Part shown: one piece after another, positions 4,920-55,894 of the stretch | Layout: every line of letters starts with the position of its first letter | Numbering within the stretch: the first letter of the stretch is position 1 | Sequence record: OP079919.1 | Source of the DNA: Klebsiella phage KPN8 | Strand: one strand, 5' to 3' | DNA: 64,000 nt | Made by a program: the position numbers and the translations under genes | The notes under the pieces: model-generated | The model's database searches: none | What the model saw: the letters and a program-made list of their open reading frames with translations, nothing else | Told to the model about the DNA's origin: nothing

Positions 4920-6185
4920 ATGAGTAAATTGTTACTGGATCTGCTGGCTCGTCAGGGCAACGAAAACCTGGAAATCGAACTGGGTAATGGCGATACCGCT
5001 GTGATCGTTCCTGAGTCGGCCGAAGAAATCGCTGAAATGGCTGCTGAAAACGTCCTCGCTGAAACTTCCGAAGAACTGGAAGAACACGCCGACGACGTTG
5101 AAGACCTGTGCGACAAAGTTGAAGAACTGGAAGAGCAGGTTGAAGAACTGCAAGAAGTCGTTGAAGGCGCCGAAGCCCTCCTGCAACCGGGTACCCAGTG
5201 GAACCCTGCTGCGTTCGCCCTGCTGTATACCCGTGGTGAAAAACTGAACGCCAAAATGAGCGATACCGCTGTCCCGGTTATGGGTGCGGAATCTCTGGCT
5301 GACGCGACTACCGCCGAACTGTCTGCTCGTGAAGGCCTGGAAGCCATGGGCGCCACCGTGAAAAAATGGGGCTCTCAGGCGATCGCTTTCATCAAGAAAA
5401 TCTGGGATAGCCTGATCGCTTTCATCAAAGGCCTGTTCTCCAAAGCCACCGCGGTTAAGAACAAAGCGAAAGCTGTTGCCGCTCGCCTGGAAAAAACCGA
5501 AAAACTGAAAGAAACCATCAAGCTGGGCAAATGGAACGCGTTTGTCGGTGTTGGCGAAGGTCAGCCTAAATCTGCAACCGGTCTGTCCACTCTGATCGGC
5601 GCTGCCGGTAAAGTGGTAGCGGGTTCTGAAGCTCTGCTGTCTTCTCCGGGTAACGCCGCTGCGCTGGCAGGTCCGGTTAAAGAACTGAGCTCCGCTGCAG
5701 CTGGCCTGGACTCTGTTTTCGGCCCGGCTAAGAAAGCTGGCGGCGACAAAGCTGTTGCCGCTCACCAGTGGCGTGGTCTGACCATCGCGGTCGGTTATTA
5801 CGCTGGTAAAGTCGAAACCTTCGAAGATGTTGCGAAAGCCGCTAAAGCCATCCGCATCTCCTGGAAAGTTTCCGGCGGTAAAACCTCTGGCGAACACAAA
5901 GTCACCGACGGCAAAGACGCGCTGAAAAAATACATCAGCGACGCCAACGCTCTGGTTGACTCCATCGCTTCTTCTAAAGTTGAAGCGCAGTATGGCGCGG
6001 CTAAACGCGATCGCATCATCGGCCTGCTGAAAGCAGCTGATACCAAAGACGGCGAAGACGTGGGTAAAGCAGTTAACGCAGTGAAAGCTGCTCAGACCGC
6101 TCTGTCCTCTGTAACGACTTCCGCGACCCGTCTGGGCCTGGCTATCGCTAACGGCGAACTCGACTACGTACGTGCTTGCCTGTAA
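4920..6185 (+). CDS. highly expressed acidic coiled-coil / Ala-Lys-rich protein (scaffold, decoration or internal head protein candidate)
   Basis: 421 aa; extreme host-optimal codon bias; N-terminal acidic heptad-like stretch EELEEHADDVEDLCDKVEELEEQVEELQEVVEGAE followed by A/K/G-rich low-complexity region; followed by strong terminator. Confidence 0.75.
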   Translation: MSKLLLDLLARQGNENLEIELGNGDTAVIVPESAEEIAEMAAENVLAETSEELEEHADDVEDLCDKVEELEEQVEELQEVVEGAEALLQPGTQWNPAAFALLYTRGEKLNAKMSDTAVPVMGAESLADATTAELSAREGLEAMGATVKKWGSQAIAFIKKIWDSLIAFIKGLFSKATAVKNKAKAVAARLEKTEKLKETIKLGKWNAFVGVGEGQPKSATGLSTLIGAAGKVVAGSEALLSSPGNAAALAGPVKELSSAAAGLDSVFGPAKKAGGDKAVAAHQWRGLTIAVGYYAGKVETFEDVAKAAKAIRISWKVSGGKTSGEHKVTDGKDALKKYISDANALVDSIASSKVEAQYGAAKRDRIIGLLKAADTKDGEDVGKAVNAVKAAQTALSSVTTSATRLGLAIANGELDYVRACL

Positions 6186-12763: not shown

Positions 12764-13426
12764 ATGATCGAGCTCTTTCGTTATAAAGAGATTAGGAAGT
12801 CACTTATTGCCCAACACGACATTATTGTTAATCGCAATTATCGTGTGTCTTTTCCTCGGCAATACTTAATGTCCTTGGATCAATTGGAGAACCGAGAAAT
12901 TGTTCGTATGACGAGTGTGATTGATCCGGATTCGCACACTCGGCCTTCTCCTATGACTGTGACGTTAGAGCGGGTTATCGATATTCTCAAACGACTTCCT
13001 GATAGTAGGATACTCGCGTTTAAACACAGCAGGGACGCTCTGGAGATTTACGAAACTATTCAGGGGTATCTCAACAATTGGATAGAGATCATTTTAGAGG
13101 CCCCCGAATTCTCCTACCCGACGATTCAAGAACTTTATGATTTGGAAAGTGTGGCCAAGTGGGCATTCCCGGTTTATCAACATGAAAAACGCATGATGTC
13201 GTTCAGGGAAAATAGGGATTTCAATAAGCAACAGTTCGCCCATCCTTTGCTAAGCCTGATTGGTGTGTTGAAGTCCGATGACGATGTTCCGTCATTTGTC
13301 TCATTTTTGGATAACCGTCTTCCGGAACACCTTAAAGCCTACCGTAACGAAGAACTCTTCACAGAAGACTTAAAAGAAGTTCTTTCTTTTGATAACTCTT
13401 TATTTGGAATTAAGGGTGGGTTATGA
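12764..13426 (+). CDS. hypothetical protein
   Basis: 220 aa ORF; SD GGAGA. Confidence 0.8.
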   Translation: MIELFRYKEIRKSLIAQHDIIVNRNYRVSFPRQYLMSLDQLENREIVRMTSVIDPDSHTRPSPMTVTLERVIDILKRLPDSRILAFKHSRDALEIYETIQGYLNNWIEIILEAPEFSYPTIQELYDLESVAKWAFPVYQHEKRMMSFRENRDFNKQQFAHPLLSLIGVLKSDDDVPSFVSFLDNRLPEHLKAYRNEELFTEDLKEVLSFDNSLFGIKGGL

Positions 13427-14769
13427 TACCCGTTAATATTAGTAACGTTTTAGAACAGGCGAAGCAGGTTGCTGCAACCAAACGACCGACCATCTCCACA
13501 CTCGAGTTAACCCTCATAACCCCGGAATTACATTACCCCGTTCCTAACGTTCAGAGACTCTCTAAGAGTTCTAATTTCTTGGAGGACGGGACGGATGTTT
13601 GGGTCATTAACTTCTTGATGCAACCAGGGGTTTTCCTAAAACAGATTCTCCCGTACAAAGACAACTTGCTCGTTGACTTAGTGGAGAGTACAGGAATCAA
13701 TAGAACCCTTCGTCGCCTCCGGGCGACAGTTCCAATGGATGTTAACCCTCAAACCAATTCGGATAACAGCGTCTATATCGATCCCGGTGTGTTAGATCAA
13801 AACATGGTAGTTCCCATCACACTTATCTTGATCGATACGGTATACGAGCAGTTACGTAACCAACCACTGCTCGACAACTATTTGATGGCCACGACCAAAG
13901 ACGTTTTGCATAATGTTTGGAGTCAGCAAGGTCACGCCATCCAATCCAACGGGGTTAATAAGTTTAAAGGGGTCGACATTGAAGAACCCACAGATAACCC
14001 CAGGGTTTATCGGCAGATCATGGTCAAGCATGGCACACGTTTGACTCGCTTTGCCGACTATCTTCAGAACGAAGAAGGTTTAGGTATTTATACGCGTGGA
14101 TGTGGGTCGTTTTATCGAGAAGGGATTTGGTACGTATTCCCTATTTGTAAACCGGAAAGATACGGTACGGTGAAGAAATCCTTAGATATTTATAAGTTCC
14201 CAGAGGATATCCTGCCGGTAACGGAACAGACGTACGGAACGACGGCGAACTCCACGTTAATACTTTCTACCGGGCCGTCTAAATTGCTAGACGGTACCGA
14301 TAACCTGAGGCAGAATTTTGGGGCCGGTCAGCAGATCATTTCTTCGGATGCAATCGCGGGAGAAGTTGGTTCGCACTACAACAACGGAGCGAGCGTCACG
14401 CTACGGGCAGAGAAAGTCACGGAGTACAGAACCACCCAACGTGCCTCAGGGCAGGAGCTTATTGACGTCAACGCCACTCCAACCAATAACGTTTTTAAAG
14501 AGATAACTAAAAACGCCATGAGGGACTGCAAGGTACTGGAATTGAATTGGACTAACTCCAATCCTTTTCTCGTTACCCCAGGCGCCCCGGTTAAGTATTA
14601 TTTCCTTAATGAACAAGGAACACTCACTATTCAGGAAGGAACCGTAATATCGGAGAAAACCACGTATTACTCCGATTCAACCAGGCCCCTTACCCCGTTT
14701 AGAAAGAACTCTATCTTAACCATACTCCTGCTCCCTATTCAAAATACCACGATAACCCCGAACAATTAA
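13423..14769 (+). CDS. hypothetical protein (virion module)
   Basis: 448 aa ORF; ATGA overlap with upstream gene. Confidence 0.8.
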   Translation: MIPVNISNVLEQAKQVAATKRPTISTLELTLITPELHYPVPNVQRLSKSSNFLEDGTDVWVINFLMQPGVFLKQILPYKDNLLVDLVESTGINRTLRRLRATVPMDVNPQTNSDNSVYIDPGVLDQNMVVPITLILIDTVYEQLRNQPLLDNYLMATTKDVLHNVWSQQGHAIQSNGVNKFKGVDIEEPTDNPRVYRQIMVKHGTRLTRFADYLQNEEGLGIYTRGCGSFYREGIWYVFPICKPERYGTVKKSLDIYKFPEDILPVTEQTYGTTANSTLILSTGPSKLLDGTDNLRQNFGAGQQIISSDAIAGEVGSHYNNGASVTLRAEKVTEYRTTQRASGQELIDVNATPTNNVFKEITKNAMRDCKVLELNWTNSNPFLVTPGAPVKYYFLNEQGTLTIQEGTVISEKTTYYSDSTRPLTPFRKNSILTILLLPIQNTTITPNN

Positions 14770-14856
14770 AATTCAACATGGAGTTTTTTATAGCACTATA
14801 TAACCGCAGTGTATGAAAAACAAAATGTTATTTTTAATTTAATAGAGGAAATCATC

Positions 14857-15315
14857 ATGAAACGTTTTATCTCTGCGGCTATTCTTTCCGTTATTGCTAT
14901 GAGCGCTACCGCAACTGAAAATACCAACATCTGGGGCTGCGTCACAAATACAGGCAAAGTCGCTAGAGTCGACTTGGTAGAAGGAGCGGGCGGCGTTCAG
15001 GCAGTCTACACGTTCGGTAAGGCCGGGAGCAATCCAGAGCTCTCCGTTGTCAAGAAACCTTCTGACGTTAAGTATACTGAGAAAGAGGCTTACGCCAACG
15101 GTATCTTGCAAACCACGTATTACCAACTGACTTTTAATAACGGACAGTTCAGTTATATCACTGAACAGTTTAACAAGATCGGACGTCTTTATGTGCTCAA
15201 GAACGATAAAGTTATTTCGACCATTGAGTGCGAAGACATTATCGATGCCGGTGTTCTCGATAGCGAAAACATGATCAAGATCTTTCCTTACCATGAAAAG
15301 GTAAAGGATGAATAA
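14857..15315 (+). CDS. small secreted (periplasmic) protein with cleavable Sec signal peptide
   Basis: ATG 14857 preceded by AGAGGAA; N-terminus MKRFISAAILSVIAMSATA-TEN looks like a signal peptide; two Cys (C29, C147 region); own AT-rich upstream region and own terminator. Confidence 0.65.
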   Translation: MKRFISAAILSVIAMSATATENTNIWGCVTNTGKVARVDLVEGAGGVQAVYTFGKAGSNPELSVVKKPSDVKYTEKEAYANGILQTTYYQLTFNNGQFSYITEQFNKIGRLYVLKNDKVISTIECEDIIDAGVLDSENMIKIFPYHEKVKDE

Positions 15316-25140: not shown

Positions 25141-25776
25141 ATGAATCGTCCAATTTTTAAAATTAGTCAGCACGCGCAGTTGTCGATCCCGGCCCTCATC
25201 GATGTTACAGAAAATGAAGCGGAATGCTCGTCACTTGTTTACGGCCTCCATCCTTCCATGACCGGGGTATTCTCTGAACGCCAGAAGGATTCAATGGCAG
25301 AGAGTCTTTACCTAATGGGTCAGTACGCCGAAATCATTCCCAGGAATAAGCCGGAGTGTACGATTGATTATCATCCCATCACTAACGAGCATTACCTTAA
25401 ATCGTTTAAACATTATTACGAAGCATGGGTTGCTTTGGGTAGAGATGAAGTGGTGATGCAGGGAGCTACTGTTAGGGTTTCGTCGTTTTTATTATTAAGG
25501 ACTATGTTCAATGGGGTCATAGGAATTCTACCTTATCTCGACCCCAAAGGACATCGGATGCAAGCAAAGGAATACGCTAAATTAGACGATTTGGTTAAAC
25601 TGACCTACGGCGTGCCCGCTGGGTCATTCTCGGCGACCCCCGATTACCAGGTTGTTCCTAAAATAGAGGTGCGGGAACAGATCGTGATGAGCTTTACTGA
25701 CAAATACGGTAACGTCATCACCATCACCGGAATCGATAGAGAAAAGATGATCGAACAGATAGAAAAATTAAAGTAA
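25141..25776 (+). CDS. hypothetical protein
   Basis: 211 aa ORF; SD AAGGAA. Confidence 0.75.
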   Translation: MNRPIFKISQHAQLSIPALIDVTENEAECSSLVYGLHPSMTGVFSERQKDSMAESLYLMGQYAEIIPRNKPECTIDYHPITNEHYLKSFKHYYEAWVALGRDEVVMQGATVRVSSFLLLRTMFNGVIGILPYLDPKGHRMQAKEYAKLDDLVKLTYGVPAGSFSATPDYQVVPKIEVREQIVMSFTDKYGNVITITGIDREKMIEQIEKLK

Positions 25777-25782
25777 TCGTCT

Positions 25783-25835
25783 TCCCTACCACTCCTTAAC
25801 TGGGGTGGTAGGGAGTAAGAAAGCTCTAATTTTTT
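25783..25835 (+). terminator. hairpin terminator
   Basis: TCCCTACCAC/GTGGTAGGGA stem; T6 run about 15 nt downstream. Confidence 0.5.
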
Positions 25836-25918
25836 AACATGAAGATTTTTATAAGTCGATATCATTCAGGTGTATAAACAACAAGTATTTTAATTCTTAT
25901 TCACTAAAGAGGTCCAAA

Positions 25919-26491
25919 ATGGAAATTCGTAAAGATATGATCAATGAAATCGCCGCTCGTATCATCTCTGGTTGCAACGACGTGGAAGCCAGTGTCCGCG
26001 AAAAGCTGCTGCGTAATTTGGTTAATGGTGAGATCTGGCAGTTCGAGCTCAATGAAACTGAGCAAGCGGAACTGATCGCGATCGTAAGCAAAGAGTTCGG
26101 TATTTCCGATCTGGTCTACGTCGAACCGCAGAAAAACATTTCTGAAGAAGATGTCGCCAAAGTCGCTGCCAGTGTTAACGGGCATGTCGAACACAAATAT
26201 CTGAATCTGCGAAATGCGATGGCGGTCGGCGCAGTACTCGGTGCCGGTGCGGCCATCTTAAAAGAAGGTGCGAACGCAATTAATGCCGGTGCTGGTGTGG
26301 TCGGCGCTGCTGTTTCTTACGGCGTGGGTTATCTGGCTGACAAGAAACAGATCGGTATGGGTAATCAGTACGCTGATGTCGCGGCAGGCATTGTTGCCGG
26401 TGGCGTTATCGGTGGTGGCGCTGTATTTGGCGCGGGCTTTGTCGCCAAACGTTTCTTCAGCGATGAAGAAGTTGAAGTTGTTGCAGAGTAA
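25919..26491 (+). CDS. glycine-zipper (GxxxG repeat) protein, paralog 1 of 3
   Basis: 190 aa; SD AGAGG; C-terminal half made of GxxxG repeats; acidic tail DEEVEVVAE; host-optimal codons. Confidence 0.75.
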   Translation: MEIRKDMINEIAARIISGCNDVEASVREKLLRNLVNGEIWQFELNETEQAELIAIVSKEFGISDLVYVEPQKNISEEDVAKVAASVNGHVEHKYLNLRNAMAVGAVLGAGAAILKEGANAINAGAGVVGAAVSYGVGYLADKKQIGMGNQYADVAAGIVAGGVIGGGAVFGAGFVAKRFFSDEEVEVVAE

Positions 26492-26554
26492 TAAACGCAT
26501 CTGAAATATCCGATGCATCTTAAATTAAACTATCAATAGTAAGGAAATACGATC

Positions 26555-26947
26555 ATGAAAAAAGAAAACATTGAACTGACTGGCACCGAACTCGACGAAG
26601 CTAAAGCAATGCTGGCTGTTGATGCAGAAACTTCTCTGTTCGACGATATCTGTGAAAAACTCGGTGGCTACGTAGCTACCGACAAACAGAAAAGCCACGT
26701 GAAAGCCGCAGTGATCGGTGGCGTCATCGGCACCGCCCTGGGCATGGCGAGCAAACCATCTGTCGGCACGCTGATCGGTGGCGTGGTTGGTACCGCAGGC
26801 GGCGCTTATGTGGGTAGTCGTATCGCTGATGATCTGAGCAATCAGTTCATTGACAAACTGCTCACCGCTGACATTGGCTTCCTGTGCAGCACCATCGGGG
26901 CGTCCATCGGTAGTGCATTAACCCCGAGTAAAGTCGAAGCGAACTAA
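26555..26947 (+). CDS. glycine-zipper protein, paralog 2 of 3
   Basis: 130 aa; SD AAGGAAA; AAVIGGVIGTALGMASKPSVGTLIGGVVGTAGGAYVGS. Confidence 0.75.
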   Translation: MKKENIELTGTELDEAKAMLAVDAETSLFDDICEKLGGYVATDKQKSHVKAAVIGGVIGTALGMASKPSVGTLIGGVVGTAGGAYVGSRIADDLSNQFIDKLLTADIGFLCSTIGASIGSALTPSKVEAN

Positions 26948-27015
26948 ATCTTCTAGTCCGTTTAAACACTGTTAAATTTTAGGCAACTCAACATCAAAAC
27001 GTAAGAGGTATTATC

Positions 27016-27411
27016 ATGGATATGGCAAACAAACCTGCAGTTAACAAAGCTCCTCTGTCAGAAGAAGAAATTCTGAAAATGCTGGCCGGTCACAAATCCA
27101 CCGATGTCAACTATCGGGTCGGTCGAATCGCCGGTGTACTGGGCGCGGTCGTCGGCGGCGCACATCGCACCGTCACTCAAGGTATCAAACCATCAACTGT
27201 TGTCGGCACAGTCGTCGGCGGATTAGTTGGGTACAAAACTGGCAAACTCGCGGATGGCTTCAGTGACCTGACGGGAACGCATTCCCCGGTCGCGGATGTC
27301 GGCGCATTCACAGCAGGTTACGGCGTGACTCTGGGCATGAGCGCCCTGGCAGCCACCTTCGATCAGTACATCACTCCGCTGTACGAATCAGAAGAAGAAA
27401 CCGAAGAATAA
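27016..27411 (+). CDS. glycine-zipper protein, paralog 3 of 3
   Basis: 131 aa; SD AAGAGG; IAGVLGAVVGGAHRTV...VVGTVVGGLVGYKTG; acidic tail ESEEETEE. Confidence 0.75.
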   Translation: MDMANKPAVNKAPLSEEEILKMLAGHKSTDVNYRVGRIAGVLGAVVGGAHRTVTQGIKPSTVVGTVVGGLVGYKTGKLADGFSDLTGTHSPVADVGAFTAGYGVTLGMSALAATFDQYITPLYESEEETEE

Positions 27412-27420
27412 GAAAGTTAA

Positions 27421-27473
27421 CTCCTCTACCCGTAAGGGTAGAGGAGTTACTTAATTACTTATTTTTTTTTTAT
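27421..27473. terminator. bidirectional rho-independent terminator
   Basis: CTCCTCTACCC-GTAA-GGGTAGAGGAG followed by T12 run; between convergent genes. Confidence 0.7.
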
Positions 27474-30439
27474 TCTGGAAGGGTATCGTCAACTTGGAAG
27501 TCGTCTTTCTTATTGCCGTCTTCTTCTGTCTCTGTTTCTTCCTCGGTTTGGGTTTCTTCTTCCTCGGAAGCGTCTGTTCCCGTCTCTTCTTCCTCAGTCG
27601 TTCCACCTTCCCCAGGCAAATCTTCCTCTATTGAGAAATCGTCGTCTGTCTGAGTTCCCTCTTCAGGGGTACCCTCATCAGCAGGTGGGGCGCCGAACTC
27701 ATCCGCCGGAGGCTGTTCCGCAGGCATAATCTTTTCCAAACGTTTAGTCAGTCGATCAGTCTCTTTATTCCAGACCTTCATGAACTGTTCTAAGAACATT
27801 CCACTGTTGTCTACGTACTGAGATATGTTGTGGATTAACGAATAGACCCCGCCCTCTTTACCCTTGTTACCGATAAGATCGAACGGCATAGGGAGGTTGA
27901 ATCGATCATAAAGTTCAATTAGATAAGTACTGCGAATAATGGATTTGACTTTCTCAATATCCAACCCGCCGCTACCATCAGTTTTGTTCATGATCTGTTC
28001 AATCAGACCGGAAGTCCCTGACATTTCAACCCACGAGTTTACAAACTGATTGACCGTATCGATTTTATCTTTCAGTTTGGTTACTGATTCCTGAGTAGCC
28101 GGAGTCGGTAAGGTCACGGTGAGGTTGTTGATAAAGTCAGCCAGGATAACTTCAACGATGTGCTCGTTAGTTCCCTCTATCTCTTCGCCGTTATCAGGTT
28201 TCCACAACGACTTATTCTCGTTAATGGTATCGACCAAACGATTCAACATAACCTGGTTAACTAACAGGTCCTTGCGTTCGATCTCAGCAACAAAGTCACC
28301 CAATACCTTCTGCCAAATCAACGTTTGGTTGCGAAGCATTTCCTGCTCGGCCAATGCCTCGACCTGGAAGTTGGTTCCTTCTTCTTTATCGTCCAACCAA
28401 GTACGTTGGAGTTTAAAAGTGGAGGCGATGTTGTTGAGGAGGTTCTGTCTGGAGGTTTCGTCGATAGCTTTGAAGTTACCGCGTTCAACCGGCTCCAGGG
28501 TTATCTTGGGTCCGACCATCCACGGGTTACCGTTACTATTAACCTCAACGATCAGGGATTGAGTCTTCATTGCTTCAACAATGTCGGGTACTGAAACAGT
28601 ACCGGAGTTTACCACGTTGTGAAGCGTTGGGTTTACCCTGAAGAACTGAGCCCTGGCCATAGCAATGGTTCCATCCGGATCAACGTCGTCTTCTTCCAGA
28701 TCAACCACTAAACGCTGACGAGTTTGAGCCTGATCCAAGTTAGCCAGAATGTCAGCGGTATCCAACGCCGCCAGGCGACCGATATGGAGTTTAGCCTGGT
28801 TGGTTAAAGAAGAACCAATACCAAAGCTATTGTAGTCAAACGCGACGTAGGTGAAGTACTCTGCCGGAATGTAAAGAACCCGAACACCCTGCTGTTTGAA
28901 AGAACGAGCCAGGAAGATCTTCAGGTTAGCTTCGACCAATTCAACAGAAATATTTTTCCCACTCACGCCGGAAGCAATAGCCTGGATAAGGGATTTTTCT
29001 ATTTGATCCTTCGATAACAGGGTGAATTCTGACATATCGAAGTCACAATCGGCACCTTGCTGAACTTTCTTCAGGTTAGCGATAAGTGCGTTGGTTCCAC
29101 TCGTTTTATTAGGTGTGTCGATCTTATCTTTCTGACCCTTAGTGGACTGATAGAAGTTAAAGTCTCTTGTGCTTTTTAAGAACTCACCGTTGGACGGGTC
29201 AAGCAAGGCGAACCCACCAATGAGCTTAGTTCTATCACCTTCCATATGAACAGGAATAAAGGCTTCACTCGGAATATGGTACCGTAAGGGAATGCCATAA
29301 ACTGAGGTGTCGTAAACCCCTGGACTGCGAACACTGATGGTTTGACGATGTGGGTAACTGCGGTGCGGATAAAACTCATTCTGAAGAACTTCCAGTTGGC
29401 TTTCCGACAAGATCTGAGTTTTAGTATCAGCGTTAGGCGTCCCGTTCTTACGTTTAGCCTTAGAGTCGTCAGGTTCTTTATTCGACTTCTTAGGATCTTC
29501 CTTTTTCTTATCCTTGGTCGCCGCAGTCTCTTCTTCGCCTTCCTCACCTTTTTTCTCTAGACGAGATTTAATAAGGGAAGCGAGATCTTCTGTCCCGCCG
29601 ATGTCGTTAACGATCTTCTTCGTTAAAACCTGATTCACGGAACGAAGAGCCAGAACCGCCGGGTTGTCTGTCAAGGTAATCCCGAACCCTTCGCCTTCAT
29701 CATTCTCGATCAATTCGAATTCAGTTGAGGCATCTGGGGCGGAGTGACTAAACAAAGCCTCTAGCCCGTGAACGACGTTATTGAGCTGCTTAGGACCCCT
29801 CACCAATCCTTTGTTGATGGCGAGAAACTTACCGTCCACATTTTTAAATTGCTTCTCAATCTCTGGTTTTATCTGAGTGTTAATGTAACTTTCGTTACCT
29901 GTCACTCCGTCTTCCCCAAACTGTTGACCGTTGATAAGGTGATCCAGCGCAGGTCTAGAGATGTTCAAAAGCACGTAGGACCCTGTGCCGAATAACCCGT
30001 CTTTGATGAACTCCGGTAACAACTTCTCGATTTTATAGTCGCTGGTATAGTAGGTTTCCGTCTTACGGAGCAACTCTTCATGCAGCTTAGTATTTTTAAA
30101 TTGAGACCGCAAAGTATCGTGAGTAAGGATCCTTTCCTGTAATCCGTTCGGGTAGAGGAGAAGCGTCTTCCAGATTAATTCCGCCCGCGAAACATAAGGT
30201 GTGATTTCCCTTAAGTCAGTTGCCGCATTGATATTGTTGGCAATGATATCGCTGATCTTTTTTAATTTGGAAGGTTGGACTTTACGTTCTTTCTCATCCG
30301 TATTTCTGGTATGATCTCTCTCGTCCCGAACGAGGTTCCGAACGACGCTTTTTAACGAGGGGCTGATATTGTTTAAATTACCCCTGAGTTTGGTTTGATC
30401 GAGGTAATCATATCCTCGGGTTGAACGCGTTCTATTCAT
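27470..30439 (-). CDS. large virion protein with Lys-rich internal segment and poly-acidic C-terminal tail (portal protein candidate, low confidence)
   Basis: 989 aa; C-terminus TEEEETGTDASEEEETQTEEETETEEDGNKKDDFQVDDTLPE; internal KKGEEGEEETAATKDKKKEDPKKSNKEPDDSKAKRK; no Walker motif. Confidence 0.75.
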   Translation of the reverse strand: MNRTRSTRGYDYLDQTKLRGNLNNISPSLKSVVRNLVRDERDHTRNTDEKERKVQPSKLKKISDIIANNINAATDLREITPYVSRAELIWKTLLLYPNGLQERILTHDTLRSQFKNTKLHEELLRKTETYYTSDYKIEKLLPEFIKDGLFGTGSYVLLNISRPALDHLINGQQFGEDGVTGNESYINTQIKPEIEKQFKNVDGKFLAINKGLVRGPKQLNNVVHGLEALFSHSAPDASTEFELIENDEGEGFGITLTDNPAVLALRSVNQVLTKKIVNDIGGTEDLASLIKSRLEKKGEEGEEETAATKDKKKEDPKKSNKEPDDSKAKRKNGTPNADTKTQILSESQLEVLQNEFYPHRSYPHRQTISVRSPGVYDTSVYGIPLRYHIPSEAFIPVHMEGDRTKLIGGFALLDPSNGEFLKSTRDFNFYQSTKGQKDKIDTPNKTSGTNALIANLKKVQQGADCDFDMSEFTLLSKDQIEKSLIQAIASGVSGKNISVELVEANLKIFLARSFKQQGVRVLYIPAEYFTYVAFDYNSFGIGSSLTNQAKLHIGRLAALDTADILANLDQAQTRQRLVVDLEEDDVDPDGTIAMARAQFFRVNPTLHNVVNSGTVSVPDIVEAMKTQSLIVEVNSNGNPWMVGPKITLEPVERGNFKAIDETSRQNLLNNIASTFKLQRTWLDDKEEGTNFQVEALAEQEMLRNQTLIWQKVLGDFVAEIERKDLLVNQVMLNRLVDTINENKSLWKPDNGEEIEGTNEHIVEVILADFINNLTVTLPTPATQESVTKLKDKIDTVNQFVNSWVEMSGTSGLIEQIMNKTDGSGGLDIEKVKSIIRSTYLIELYDRFNLPMPFDLIGNKGKEGGVYSLIHNISQYVDNSGMFLEQFMKVWNKETDRLTKRLEKIMPAEQPPADEFGAPPADEGTPEEGTQTDDDFSIEEDLPGEGGTTEEEETGTDASEEEETQTEEETETEEDGNKKDDFQVDDTLPE

Positions 30440-55135: not shown

Positions 55136-55167
55136 AATAAGACAGATCTATATTATCTTAGAGAACC

Positions 55168-55225: not shown

Positions 55226-55894
55226 ATGAAGACCGCATTTGGTTTAATGTTCATTCTTATCATGGGGATAAGTAGCGCATTCGCATCAGTGAGTACATCT
55301 CAGTCGGATTATCACTATTTTAATAAACAGAAAACTTACATTTTCGAAGCATCCAAACTTACGGGGATCTCCCCTGAATTAGTTACCGCAATAGGTTCCA
55401 TAGAAAGTGGCCTGGGGCGTAATAAAGTTAATCGGTATTCTAAAGTCAAAGGTGTGATGCAAACCACCAAGCGGACTTATAACTCTAACCTCAAGAAACA
55501 CCACGAAAGACTTGGGTTATCTCCTAACGCTTCTATCAAAAACGATAGAGCAAATATCTTAGTTGCTACCGCAGCATTAGCAGATAACAAACGTTACTTA
55601 GAGAAAGTCACGAATAAAAAAATCACAGATGGGGATGTGTTCATTTCCCATCTGGTAGGTTTAGGTGGCGCAGCTAAAATAATCAAAGGCAAACCCAACG
55701 CCCCCATAAGCCGTTATATCGCACTTCATAAAGGTAACATGCGACTCTATACTGACAAAGGACGGGTATTGACCGTGGCGCAGTTTAGGAGGAGTATGGA
55801 TCGGCTGGTAAAGAAAGAAAGCGCGAAGTATGCCGTGGTTATCAATCAGAACAAGTTGGATCGTTTGATAACAGCTGTCGCGTATAATCAATAA
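55226..55894 (+). CDS. lytic transglycosylase (SLT domain) with N-terminal signal/SAR-like segment; endolysin candidate
   Basis: MKTAFGLMFILIMGISSAFASVS weakly hydrophobic Gly/Ser/Ala-rich N-terminus; catalytic region AIGSIESGLGRN...KGVMQTTKRTY (ES...GLMQ family 1 motif). Confidence 0.6.
   Translation: MKTAFGLMFILIMGISSAFASVSTSQSDYHYFNKQKTYIFEASKLTGISPELVTAIGSIESGLGRNKVNRYSKVKGVMQTTKRTYNSNLKKHHERLGLSPNASIKNDRANILVATAALADNKRYLEKVTNKKITDGDVFISHLVGLGGAAKIIKGKPNAPISRYIALHKGNMRLYTDKGRVLTVAQFRRSMDRLVKKESAKYAVVINQNKLDRLITAVAYNQ

What the first reader, a model, noticed from the sequence alone, without database searches (positions are those of the whole stretch)
25919..27411. Tandem trio of highly expressed glycine-zipper paralogs forming their own transcription unit
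Three adjacent genes (190, 130 and 131 aa) each carry their own SD. They are bracketed by a hairpin terminator upstream (25783..25835) and a strong bidirectional terminator downstream (27421..27473). All three are dominated by GxxxG/AxxxG repeat segments, for example GAVLGAGAAILKEGANAINAGAGVVGAAVSYGVGY, AAVIGGVIGTALGMASKPSVGTLIGGVVGTAGGAYVGS and IAGVLGAVVGGAHRTV...VVGTVVGGLVGYKTG. Two of them end in acidic tails (DEEVEVVAE, ESEEETEE). They are clearly paralogs, and their codon usage is among the most host-optimal in the window, which implies abundant products. Glycine-zipper segments of this kind occur in membrane-active proteins: SlyB and 17 kDa-antigen-like outer-membrane proteins, pinholin transmembrane domains, and class II bacteriocins. 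None of the three has a signal peptide. They may be an uncharacterised membrane-targeting module, for example injected channel or pilot proteins, a superinfection-exclusion or membrane-depolarising system, or antiholin-like regulators. I cannot place them in any known phage protein family from the sequence alone.
Basis: partly seen in the sequence, partly recalled or inferred. Interest (0 to 1): 0.62.

Follow-up and report, generated by a model that had tools for sequence, protein, structure and literature searches.

The report
Early glycine-rich three-gene phage operon
Three small glycine/alanine-rich paralogous genes beside the portal gene of a Klebsiella jumbo phage form an insulated operon that appears to use the same early promoter type as the phage-nucleus shell gene; they look highly expressed and possibly membrane-inserting, but their function is unknown.

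Summary
Three ORFs (190, 130 and 131 aa) lie at the stated coordinates, each with a Shine-Dalgarno site. Strong hairpins bracket them and none lies between them. They rank 3rd-5th of 49 window genes for codon bias. The window is a Miamivirus, a chimallin-encoding jumbo phage, and the genes correspond to Miami gp041-043, annotated hypothetical.

Paralogy is real but only visible with profiles: P1~P3 and P2~P3 each score about 92-95% by hhalign, above shuffle controls. The family is tiny, with 23 relatives among 1.84 billion representatives. It always sits between an ~800-aa protein gene and the convergent portal gene, in 1-3 copies per genome. Only P2 passes a Pfam glycine-zipper threshold.

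The main new finding is a conserved element upstream of P1 (25846-25884) that belongs to the phiKZ-type early (virion-RNA-polymerase) promoter class. It is conserved upstream of the family gene in 10 lineages and published as a predicted promoter for N1M2 ORF104. In a Miamivirus genome the same motif precedes chimallin and a non-virion RNAP subunit.

I therefore read the trio as an abundant early operon embedded among head genes. It most likely encodes membrane-inserting proteins, but membrane association and function remain untested.

The parts
25783..25815 (+). Stem-loop (13-14 bp stem) ending the upstream unit (797-aa and 211-aa genes). It insulates the trio from upstream transcription.
   Evidence: RNA fold dG -28.1 kcal/mol, z -5.16, 0 of 200 shuffles as stable. 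An equivalent hairpin sits at the same place in RisingSun, L013, VP4B, ZPAH34 and L020.
25846..25884 (+). phiKZ-type early (virion RNA polymerase) promoter-class element: TTTT-TATAAGTCGATATCATTCAGGTGTATAAACAACA. The predicted transcription start lies roughly 25880-25890.
   Evidence: It is the only match with 1 mismatch in the 64-kb window; two weaker 3-mismatch hits exist elsewhere. It is conserved upstream of the family gene in 10 lineages. It matches the published N1M2 promoter consensus, and N1M2 lists the site upstream of its family member ORF104. In Miamivirus phiKp_32 the same motif precedes chimallin, an nvRNAP beta subunit, the GroEL-like chaperonin and an HTH protein. No transcription start site has been mapped for this phage.
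25907..25912 (+). Shine-Dalgarno site AAGAGG of P1.
   Evidence: Read directly from the sequence.
25919..26491 (+). P1, 190 aa (Miami gp041). It has a lineage-specific helical N-domain (about residues 1-95), then three Gly/Ala-rich apolar segments (99-114, 117-140, 154-176) and the tail KRFFSDEEVEVVAE.
   Evidence: ORF; composition and hydropathy. It is 98-99% conserved in six Miamivirus records and has a 43%-identical ortholog, P0033. hhalign to the P3 subfamily gives 95% probability, E 3.4e-8.
26555..26947 (+). P2, 130 aa (Miami gp042). It has a charged N-region and three Gly-rich apolar segments (51-66, 68-88, 107-125). The acidic tail is degenerate here (…SKVEAN).
   Evidence: Pfam Gly-zipper_Omp scores 27.9 bits against a cut-off of 25 over residues 52-90. 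hhalign to the P3 subfamily gives 92% probability, E 6.9e-7. Its ortholog in L020 ends in PMFTKEEA.
27016..27411 (+). P3, 131 aa (Miami gp043). It is the 'hub' paralog, with three apolar segments (38-50, 59-73, 95-115) and the tail LYESEEETEE.
   Evidence: ORF; links to both P1 and P2 by hhalign. It resembles the single-copy RisingSun gp87. Its ortholog in L020 ends in KTFFKEDDATE.
27419..27449 (.). Shared convergent (bidirectional) terminator hairpin between P3 and the portal gene (27470-30439, minus strand).
   Evidence: Terminator scan; fold z -5.1 on the + strand and -6.0 on the - strand. It is annotated as a terminator in the Miami record.

Best explanation
The region is an insulated three-gene early operon of a nucleus-forming (chimallin-encoding) jumbo phage.

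How it is expressed (inferred): a phiKZ-type early promoter at about 25846-25884 would be read by the injected virion RNA polymerase. Transcription would start about 35-40 nt before P1, run through P1, P2 and P3, and stop at the hairpin shared with the convergent portal gene. A hairpin upstream blocks read-through from the preceding genes. Codon usage at the level of chimallin and the capsid protein implies very high protein output.

What it encodes (shown): three diverged paralogs of a small family restricted to this phage clade. Each has a polar or charged N-region, three uniformly apolar Gly/Ala-rich helices, and usually a C-terminal [F/M]-F-x-x-E-E acidic tail.

What the proteins do (inferred, not shown): they are made in the cytoplasm without signal peptides. 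They insert as helical hairpins or oligomers, packed through small-residue faces, into a lipid bilayer that is accessible from the cytoplasm. That bilayer would be the host inner membrane and/or the membrane of the early phage infection (EPI) vesicle. There they would change membrane properties early in infection, for example excluding superinfecting genomes or altering permeability or organisation. The acidic tail would serve as a binding or topology determinant.

My confidence in the separate steps is: own transcription unit about 0.9; paralogs about 0.85; early-promoter class about 0.8; abundant about 0.75; membrane-inserted about 0.5. The specific membrane role is unknown.
For: Transcription unit: bracketing hairpins with none between the genes, and a single promoter-class motif upstream of P1 only.

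Promoter class:
- The motif is conserved upstream of the family gene in 10 lineages even though the proteins are barely alignable.
- It matches the N1M2/OBP/201phi2-1/EL/phiKZ early-promoter family in PMC7058600, and N1M2 Supplementary Table 4 lists pORF104, a family member.
- This motif class lies about 10 bp upstream of mapped transcription starts and is assigned to early genes in 201phi2-1 (PMC11512511).
- In phiKZ it marks vRNAP promoters, including chimallin PHIKZ054 (PMC8244752).
- In Miamivirus phiKp_32 the motif precedes chimallin (phrog_4795, E 8e-100), nvRNAP beta (E 1.5e-124), the chaperonin and an HTH protein. All plus-strand hits with 2 or fewer mismatches lie 30-110 nt upstream of gene starts.

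Abundance:
- The trio ranks 3rd-5th of 49 genes for codon bias.
- RisingSun's single-copy member has Fop 0.85, equal to its capsid and internal head proteins. Sureiya's member tops its neighbourhood.
- Chimallin has Fop 0.81, the highest of 49 genes in its segment.

Paralogy and family: hhalign with shuffle controls; conserved position in all lineages; the tandem trio is retained at 43% identity.

Membrane leaning:
- Three uncharged segments of 13-26 residues occur in every member.
- They have low hydrophobic moment with mean hydrophobicity 0.5-0.8.
- P2 passes Gly-zipper_Omp, and its weaker hits are all to small membrane-protein families.
- RisingSun gp87 was not detected in clarified crude-lysate mass spectrometry despite capsid-level codon bias.
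Against: - No transcription start or timing data exist for any phage carrying this family. The 'early' assignment rests on motif class and on the genes it accompanies.
- The same motif class also precedes an SLT transglycosylase, and N1M2's authors note it before a putative virion protein. It therefore does not by itself exclude virion incorporation.
- Hydrophobicity is marginal. P2 and P3 have maximum KD19 of 1.33 and 1.29, and all simple Hessa 19-mer sums are positive (+1 to +7 kcal/mol).
- In the pEt-SU/Sureiya-type members the third segment contains Asp, Asn and Gln.
- AlphaFold models are unconfident (pLDDT 45 and 43).
- The strictly conserved position next to the portal gene, inside a head-gene block, hints at a morphogenetic role.
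- The family is absent from phiKZ, EL, RAY and Goslar-type phages, so it is not a core chimallivirus function.
Confidence: 0.4

Rival explanations
1. The proteins are non-virion head-assembly factors: a scaffold-like protein, or a membrane-bound initiator or chaperone of portal and prohead assembly. This would be functionally like T4 gp40 or the small prohead-core proteins encoded next to the T4 portal gene (my own knowledge). They would be made in capsid-scale amounts and then discarded or degraded.
For: The position directly beside the portal gene and within the capsid, internal-head-protein and portal block is invariant in every lineage. Codon bias is equal to the capsid and internal head proteins. 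RisingSun gp87 is absent from the lysate proteome, as expected for a discarded factor. The conserved acidic C-tail could be a docking peptide.
Against: The promoter belongs to the class found upstream of chimallin and nvRNAP genes, not upstream of the capsid gene. Scaffolds are normally charged coiled coils, not Gly/Ala-rich apolar helices. The family is missing from many chimalliviruses that build the same capsid. No homology to any head-assembly family was found.
Confidence: 0.2
2. The proteins are soluble or shell-associated early proteins. The apolar Gly/Ala helices would form the core of a helical bundle or oligomer that works with the chimallin shell or another early cytoplasmic structure, with no lipid involvement.
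For: They share a promoter class and codon bias with chimallin. Hydrophobicity is marginal, and polar or charged residues occur inside the third segment of the long subfamily. Net charge is acidic, -5 to -10.
Against: Three consecutive uncharged segments with very low hydrophobic moment are atypical for soluble bundles. P2 matches membrane Gly-zipper families. No similarity to known shell-associated proteins was detected, although no dedicated comparison was made.
Confidence: 0.15
3. The proteins are virion-internal, ejected proteins stored near the portal. On injection they would enter the envelope to form or line the DNA conduit, or to help make the EPI vesicle.
For: Portal adjacency. Weak PHROG matches of P2 to hydrophobic stretches of tape-measure and large virion proteins (E 3.5e-4 to 0.03). 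The early-type motif also precedes a transglycosylase that is likely virion-associated.
Against: An early promoter and very high expression are unnecessary for low-copy ejection proteins. RisingSun gp87 was not found in the lysate proteome, though this is weak evidence because the portal was missed too. No consistent prohead-protease motif was seen by eye. The family has a restricted distribution.
Confidence: 0.12
4. The proteins are lysis-timing proteins: a holin, pinholin or antiholin set.
For: They are small proteins with Gly-zipper-like apolar helices and no signal peptide.
Against: No endolysin or spanin gene is adjacent. The SLT gene is 28 kb away. An early promoter class and capsid-level codon bias are the opposite of what is expected for holins. 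The segments are too weakly hydrophobic or too short for typical holin transmembrane domains.
Confidence: 0.05

Closest known systems
Glycine-zipper membrane domains (Pfam Gly-zipper_Omp PF13488, Gly-zipper_YMGG PF13441, Rick_17kDa_Anti PF05433; SlyB/Pcp-type lipoproteins)
   Same: Paired short Gly-rich apolar helices with GxxxG/AxxxG spacing. P2 residues 52-90 pass the PF13488 gathering score (27.9 vs 25 bits).
   Different: The bacterial proteins are lipoproteins exported with a signal peptide to the outer membrane (my own knowledge). The phage proteins have no signal peptide or lipobox. They have three segments rather than two, plus a charged N-region and an acidic tail. P1, P3 and six other family candidates fail every Gly-zipper threshold.
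Early small membrane proteins of lytic phages that block superinfection (T4 Imm and Sp; my own knowledge)
   Same: Small size, early expression, no enzymatic domain, proposed action at the inner membrane.
   Different: No sequence similarity. The T4 proteins have classical hydrophobic transmembrane helices and are not known to be expressed at capsid-like levels. An exclusion function is untested here.
phiKZ-type early (virion RNAP) regulon, e.g. chimallin PHIKZ054, nvRNAP subunits and the N1M2 '31-site' promoter set
   Same: Same promoter motif class and geometry (a T-run, a K-ATAT-y-A-y-y box, then GTG). It is shared with chimallin and nvRNAP beta in Miamivirus. The N1M2 family member is in the published list.
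   Different: This concerns regulation, not protein function. No transcription starts have been mapped in Miamivirus, and the operon is embedded in a block of head genes rather than in the early-gene region.
GlsB/YeaQ/YmgE (Transgly_assoc PF04226), DUF456 and DUF1269 small Gly-rich inner-membrane proteins
   Same: Small proteins with several Gly-rich apolar helices. P2 gives weak sub-threshold hits to them (E 0.002-0.03).
   Different: All are below gathering thresholds. The bacterial proteins are markedly more hydrophobic (my own knowledge) and lack the N-region and the acidic tail.

Membership tests
Pfam Gly-zipper_Omp (PF13488) | HMM score at or above the gathering threshold (25 bits) | tested here: inconclusive
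   P2 scores 27.9 bits and meets it. P1 has no hit and P3 no hit at E<=1. Of 9 family candidates only 1 matches.
SlyB/Pcp/17-kDa-antigen type glycine-zipper lipoproteins (PF05433) | HMM score at or above threshold (24.2 bits), and a lipoprotein signal peptide with a lipobox cysteine | tested here: not met
   P2 scores 15.2 bits and P3 13.7 bits, both below the cut-off. The N-termini MEIRKD…, MKKENIE… and MDMANKP… have no hydrophobic h-region or lipobox (by inspection).
phiKZ-type early (vRNAP) transcription units | Early-promoter motif (T-rich element plus extended -10-like ATATTAy box) at the right distance upstream of the first gene | tested here: met
   The site at 25850-25874 has 1 mismatch to the clade consensus, with 0.8 hits expected by chance in the window at up to 3 mismatches. 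It is conserved in 10 lineages. It shares the motif class with chimallin and nvRNAP beta. The published N1M2 site is pORF104.
phiKZ-type early (vRNAP) transcription units | Mapped transcription start, and transcript accumulation in the first minutes of infection | not testable with these tools
   No transcriptome for any phage carrying the family was found in the literature searches.
Virion structural or internal head proteins | Detection in purified virions by mass spectrometry, or homology to a known virion protein family | tested here: inconclusive
   No family-level homology to any virion protein family: only weak local PHROG hits of P2 (E 3.5e-4 to 0.03) to hydrophobic stretches of tape-measure and large virion proteins, and nothing in Pfam or the PDB. 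RisingSun gp87 is absent from the 31 proteins detected in crude lysate, but the portal was also missed.
Holins / pinholins | At least one bona fide transmembrane domain, and genetic linkage to an endolysin or spanin | tested here: not met
   No lysis gene is adjacent. Segments are marginal by Kyte-Doolittle and Hessa measures. The promoter class and codon bias are inconsistent with a holin.
Class II bacteriocins / microcin V | Double-glycine leader, and an HMM score above threshold | tested here: not met
   PF10439 gives E 0.21 and PF17508 gives E 0.23, both far below their cut-offs.

The most novel reading that the evidence does not exclude
The trio, and its single- or double-copy relatives, are abundant early proteins that insert from the cytoplasm into the membrane of the early phage infection (EPI) vesicle. 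There they would form exchange channels, or open the vesicle so that the genome can be handed to the nascent chimallin shell. Neither of these steps has a known factor. The proteins are co-regulated with chimallin, and the acidic C-tail would end up in the vesicle lumen or act as a docking peptide.
Probability: 0.12. Interest if true: 0.85.

Novelty: new variant of a known kind. Interest (0 to 1): 0.57.

Why it matters
Chimalliviruses start infection inside a lipid vesicle and then move their genome into a protein-shelled nucleus. The 2025 review (PMC12908238) lists as open questions how the vesicle forms, what its channels are, and how the genome is transferred.

A clade-conserved operon that carries the chimallin-type early promoter, is probably very highly expressed, and encodes putative membrane-inserting proteins gives a concrete candidate set for early membrane-directed functions. 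It can be tested directly by knock-down and localisation.

Even if the role turns out to be exclusion or assembly, two things are useful in their own right. The first is that an early-type transcription unit is kept fixed beside the portal gene across genera. The second is that the gene has expanded from 1 to 2 to 3 diverging copies. Both inform annotation of jumbo phages that are being developed for Klebsiella therapy.

Tried and rejected
- tblastn of each protein against 50,697 phage records found only the six Miamivirus records. tblastn with an intermediate member (P0006) found only pEt-SU.
- A word-indexed search of 5.8 billion proteins with P1 gave only near-identical copies.
- The PDB profile search found nothing meaningful; the best hit was halorhodopsin at E 0.49.
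- NCBIfam gave only sub-threshold Gly-zipper lipoprotein hits for P2.
- AlphaFold2 on P1 (13-sequence alignment) and on P3 (11 sequences) gave pLDDT 45 and 43. I therefore ran no fold searches, because matches to such models would be meaningless.
- A profile built only from distant 'long' members scored P1, P2 and P3 at 6.5, 3.7 and 10.1 bits, and only P3 exceeded all shuffles. Homology of the trio to the pEt-SU/Sureiya-type proteins therefore rests on position, architecture, the tail motif and a modest hhalign score (30.6 against a shuffle maximum of 20.4).
- The sigma-70 promoter scan was at chance level.
- I looked for an equivalent gene in phiKZ (gp125, gp126, gp130), EL (ORF102) and RAY (gp5) and found none.
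- I looked by eye for a conserved prohead-protease (S/A/G-x-E) site and found nothing consistent.
- Literature searches for glycine-zipper proteins in jumbo phages and for Miamivirus proteomics returned nothing relevant.
- IMG/VR and JGI scans with P0033 found nothing.
- PADLOC was not run.
Full report
1. OBSERVATION

Each has an AAGAGG- or AAGGA-type ribosome-binding site.

The upstream hairpin (25783-25815; dG -28 kcal/mol, z -5.2) and the downstream hairpin (27419-27449; z -5.1 and -6.0 on the two strands) are both real. The two intergenic spacers have no significant structure.

Small-xxx-small motifs exceed composition-matched shuffles about three- to four-fold in P2 and P3, but only weakly in P1.

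For codon bias I used a set of E. coli-type optimal codons taken from my own knowledge of the Ikemura and Sharp-Li lists. By that measure the trio ranks 3rd-5th of 49 window genes, behind only the major capsid protein and a 421-aa protein. CTG accounts for 0.64-0.80 of Leu codons, against about 0.15 elsewhere. The ranking survives removal of Gly, Ala and Val codons.

2. CONTEXT

The window is 92-97% identical to six Miamivirus records: Klebsiella phages Miami, phiKp_32 and YC1, Raoultella VB_ZK_P1, and 'Stenotrophomonas' BUCTxx100. Miami is one of the chimallin-encoding phages analysed by Prichard et al.. The trio corresponds to Miami gp041-043, all annotated hypothetical.

The minus-strand 989-aa neighbour is the homolog of phiKZ gp129, the portal protein. 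The gene order is: capsid protein, a 340-aa protein, an nvRNAP-like 'polymerase', an ~800-aa protein, small gene(s), then the convergent portal gene. This order is conserved in VP4B, pEt-SU, Sureiya, ZPAH34, AH04, RisingSun, RAY and three metagenomic contigs.

3. THE FAMILY AND THE PARALOGY CLAIM

Pairwise BLASTP among the three proteins is marginal (E 0.002, 0.024 and non-significant). Profile-profile comparison using divergent orthologs gives stronger results:

| Comparison | Probability | E-value | Score | Column-shuffle null | Block-shuffle maximum |
|---|---|---|---|---|---|
| P1 ~ P3 | 95% | 3.4e-8 | 52.7 | 12.3±1.5 | 30.7 |
| P2 ~ P3 | 92% | 6.9e-7 | 42.7 | 11.1±1.7 | 22.4 |

P1 ~ P2 is not directly detectable. 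The three are therefore paralogs linked through P3.

At the same genomic position other lineages carry:
- one short copy: RisingSun gp87 (123 aa) and L013 (120 aa);
- two copies: VP4B gp150 and gp151;
- one longer copy of 175-240 aa: pEt-SU gp070, Sureiya 02150, N1M2 gp104, AH04_130 and ZPAH34.

All share one layout: a polar or charged N-region, three uncharged Gly/Ala/Ser/Thr-rich segments, and usually a C-terminal [F/M]-F-x-x-E-E acidic tail.

Sequence evidence that links the trio to the long forms is modest. hhalign gives 30.6 against a shuffle maximum of 20.4, and an hmmsearch with a long-only profile scores 4-10 bits. I therefore treat that link as supported mainly by position, architecture and the tail motif.

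A lineage whose P1 ortholog is only 43% identical (L020) keeps the whole arrangement: hairpin, promoter, then P1-, P2- and P3-like genes. In that lineage all three proteins end in the acidic tail.

The family is very small. An exhaustive HMMER scan of 1.84 billion representatives found 23 proteins. Two profile searches of 5.8 billion proteins found 17 and 8. The profile does not attract generic glycine-zipper proteins. EL, RAY and phiKZ lack a counterpart at the syntenic position.

4. KNOWN-FAMILY TESTS

Only P2 (residues 52-90) passes a curated threshold: Pfam Gly-zipper_Omp, 27.9 bits against a cut-off of 25. Everything else is sub-threshold, and P1 has no hit at all. The PDB profile search was empty. 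AlphaFold2 models of P1 and P3 were all-helical but unreliable (pLDDT 45 and 43), so I attempted no fold search.

5. EXPRESSION SIGNALS: THE MAIN NEW RESULT

Aligning the DNA upstream of the family gene from nine lineages revealed a conserved element, approximately TTTCAG-nn-CTATAT-n-AyT-nn-rGTGtATAA-nnn-AAyAAgTATTT. The proteins downstream are barely alignable.

In the window this element lies at 25846-25884. It is the only good match in the 64 kb: 1 mismatch to a 25-nt degenerate consensus, with two weaker 3-mismatch hits elsewhere.

The motif has been described before:
- Lewis et al. 2020 (PMC7058600) report TBYAWWWWWTTTCARRYAKATATTATYWAAGTGWA at 31 N1M2 sites. They equate it with the OBP early promoter and with the 201phi2-1, EL and phiKZ (TATATTAC) motifs.
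- Their Supplementary Table 4 lists 'pORF 104', which is the N1M2 family member.
- ONT-cappable-seq in 201phi2-1 places this AT-rich motif about 10 bp upstream of transcription starts and assigns it to early genes (PMC11512511).
- dRNA-seq in phiKZ defines the vRNAP early motif as an extended -10 box plus a T-rich element. It reports 5'UTRs of 31-40 nt and finds the motif at the primary start site of PHIKZ054, which is chimallin (PMC8244752).

I then scanned the complete genome of Miamivirus phiKp_32. The motif lies 30-110 nt upstream of:
- chimallin (phrog_4795, E 8e-100);
- an nvRNAP beta subunit (phrog_3295, E 1.5e-124);
- the GroEL-like chaperonin;
- an HTH protein and a LysM protein;
- several small hypothetical genes.

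The P1 and chimallin sites even share the downstream block ATAAACAACA.

Chimallin is also the most codon-biased gene in its 50-kb segment (Fop 0.81 against a median of 0.49). The RisingSun single-copy family member equals that phage's capsid and internal head proteins (Fop 0.85). In Miamivirus the strongly biased gene set is therefore the capsid protein, the major internal head protein, chimallin and this operon.

6. BIOPHYSICS

Every family member has three uncharged runs of 13-26 residues that are 55-60% Gly, Ala, Ser or Thr. The numbers are:
- Mean Eisenberg hydrophobicity is 0.51-0.79 and the hydrophobic moment is 0.02-0.24, so the segments are apolar and not amphipathic.
- Kyte-Doolittle 19-residue maxima run from 1.1 to 2.2. 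P1 reaches 1.88, while P2 and P3 reach only about 1.3.
- Simple Hessa sums are all positive. The scale values are from my memory and position dependence is ignored.

Membrane insertion is therefore plausible, perhaps as re-entrant hairpins or oligomers, but it is not predicted with confidence.

RisingSun gp87 was not among the 31 proteins detected in a crude lysate (PMC6034870). That is compatible with a membrane-bound or short-lived protein. The evidence is weak, because the portal protein was missed as well.

7. INTERPRETATION

Shown:
- an insulated tricistronic unit;
- diverged paralogs of a small clade-restricted family;
- a conserved promoter element of the chimallin/nvRNAP class;
- conserved, very strong codon bias.

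Inferred: early, high-level expression by the virion RNA polymerase.

Hypothesised: insertion into the inner membrane and/or the EPI-vesicle membrane, with an early membrane-directed function such as exclusion, permeability change, or vesicle-to-nucleus hand-off.

Rivals: a discarded head or portal assembly factor, for which the invariant portal adjacency is the best argument; a soluble or shell-associated early protein; ejected virion proteins; and lysis regulators, which I consider least likely.

One caveat applies to all of this. The same motif class also precedes an SLT transglycosylase, so promoter class alone does not exclude virion incorporation.

8. NOVELTY AND VERDICT

The genes are annotated only as hypothetical. 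The family has no Pfam or PHROG identity beyond one glycine-zipper match. I found no paper that discusses it. The only trace in the literature is one line in the N1M2 promoter table.

I rate it a new variant of a known kind: small glycine-zipper-type, putatively membrane-active phage proteins, but with an unusual regulatory and genomic setting. Interest is moderate to high, because it yields a specific, testable candidate for early membrane biology in nucleus-forming phages. The function itself remains unproven.

Noticed in passing
window 4920-6185 (+): This 421-aa gene has the highest codon bias in the window (Fop 0.84). It sits at the position of RisingSun gp68, the 'phiKZ-like internal head protein', which was the second most abundant protein in the RisingSun lysate mass spectrometry. 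NCBIfam gives only weak coiled-coil (SMC-like) hits.
   Followed up: partly
window 55141-55165 (+), upstream of 55226-55894: A second copy of the early-promoter-class motif (3 mismatches) lies about 60 nt upstream of a 222-aa SLT-domain transglycosylase (Pfam SLT, E 9e-7). An early-type promoter in front of a probable virion or lysis enzyme is unexpected.
   Followed up: partly
window 14789-14813 (+), upstream of the small ORF ending at 15315: A third, weaker match (3 mismatches) to the early-promoter-class motif lies in the intergenic gap after 13423-14769, just before a gene of about 150-168 aa with unknown function.
   Followed up: no
L019 1327-2463 (BUCTxx100); L016 19897-21033 and 47036-48172 (phiKp_32): A 378-aa TnpB-like 'mobile element protein' is inserted between the 797-aa and 211-aa genes in BUCTxx100 but not in the window. 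phiKp_32 carries two annotated IS200/IS605 tnpB copies elsewhere. TnpB elements therefore appear to be mobile within Miamivirus genomes.
   Followed up: partly
record OR529409.1: 'Stenotrophomonas phage BUCTxx100' is 96.7% identical over this region to Klebsiella phages Miami, phiKp_32 and YC1, and is the closest record to the window. The host label looks inconsistent with its relatives.
   Followed up: no
L006 9536-9640 (-) and proteins P0004, P0009, P0010, P0018, P0029, P0031, P0035: Sureiya/N1M2-type family members are annotated with a conserved N-terminal extension, MSRNIKYLGSNCKPV…. It starts about 35 nt after the promoter motif and lies about 100 nt before a second in-frame ATG that has its own AAGGAA ribosome-binding site. 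It is unclear whether this is real coding sequence or a conserved 5' leader.
   Followed up: partly
L003 9214-10209 (-) (phage EL ORF100): Near the portal, EL encodes a 331-aa protein whose N-terminal half is a run of roughly 8-residue Gly-rich repeats (…GDHGTAIAGKNSVATAANNGHAVSGDYGTAIV…). These are reminiscent of beta-helical repeat proteins and are unrelated to the trio.
   Followed up: no
window 25141-25776 (+): The 211-aa gene just upstream of the trio has no family match in Pfam, PHROGs or NCBIfam. It has low codon bias (Fop 0.48, CTG/Leu 0.06) and no detectable similarity to phiKZ gp125, which is the same size and occupies the same position.
   Followed up: partly
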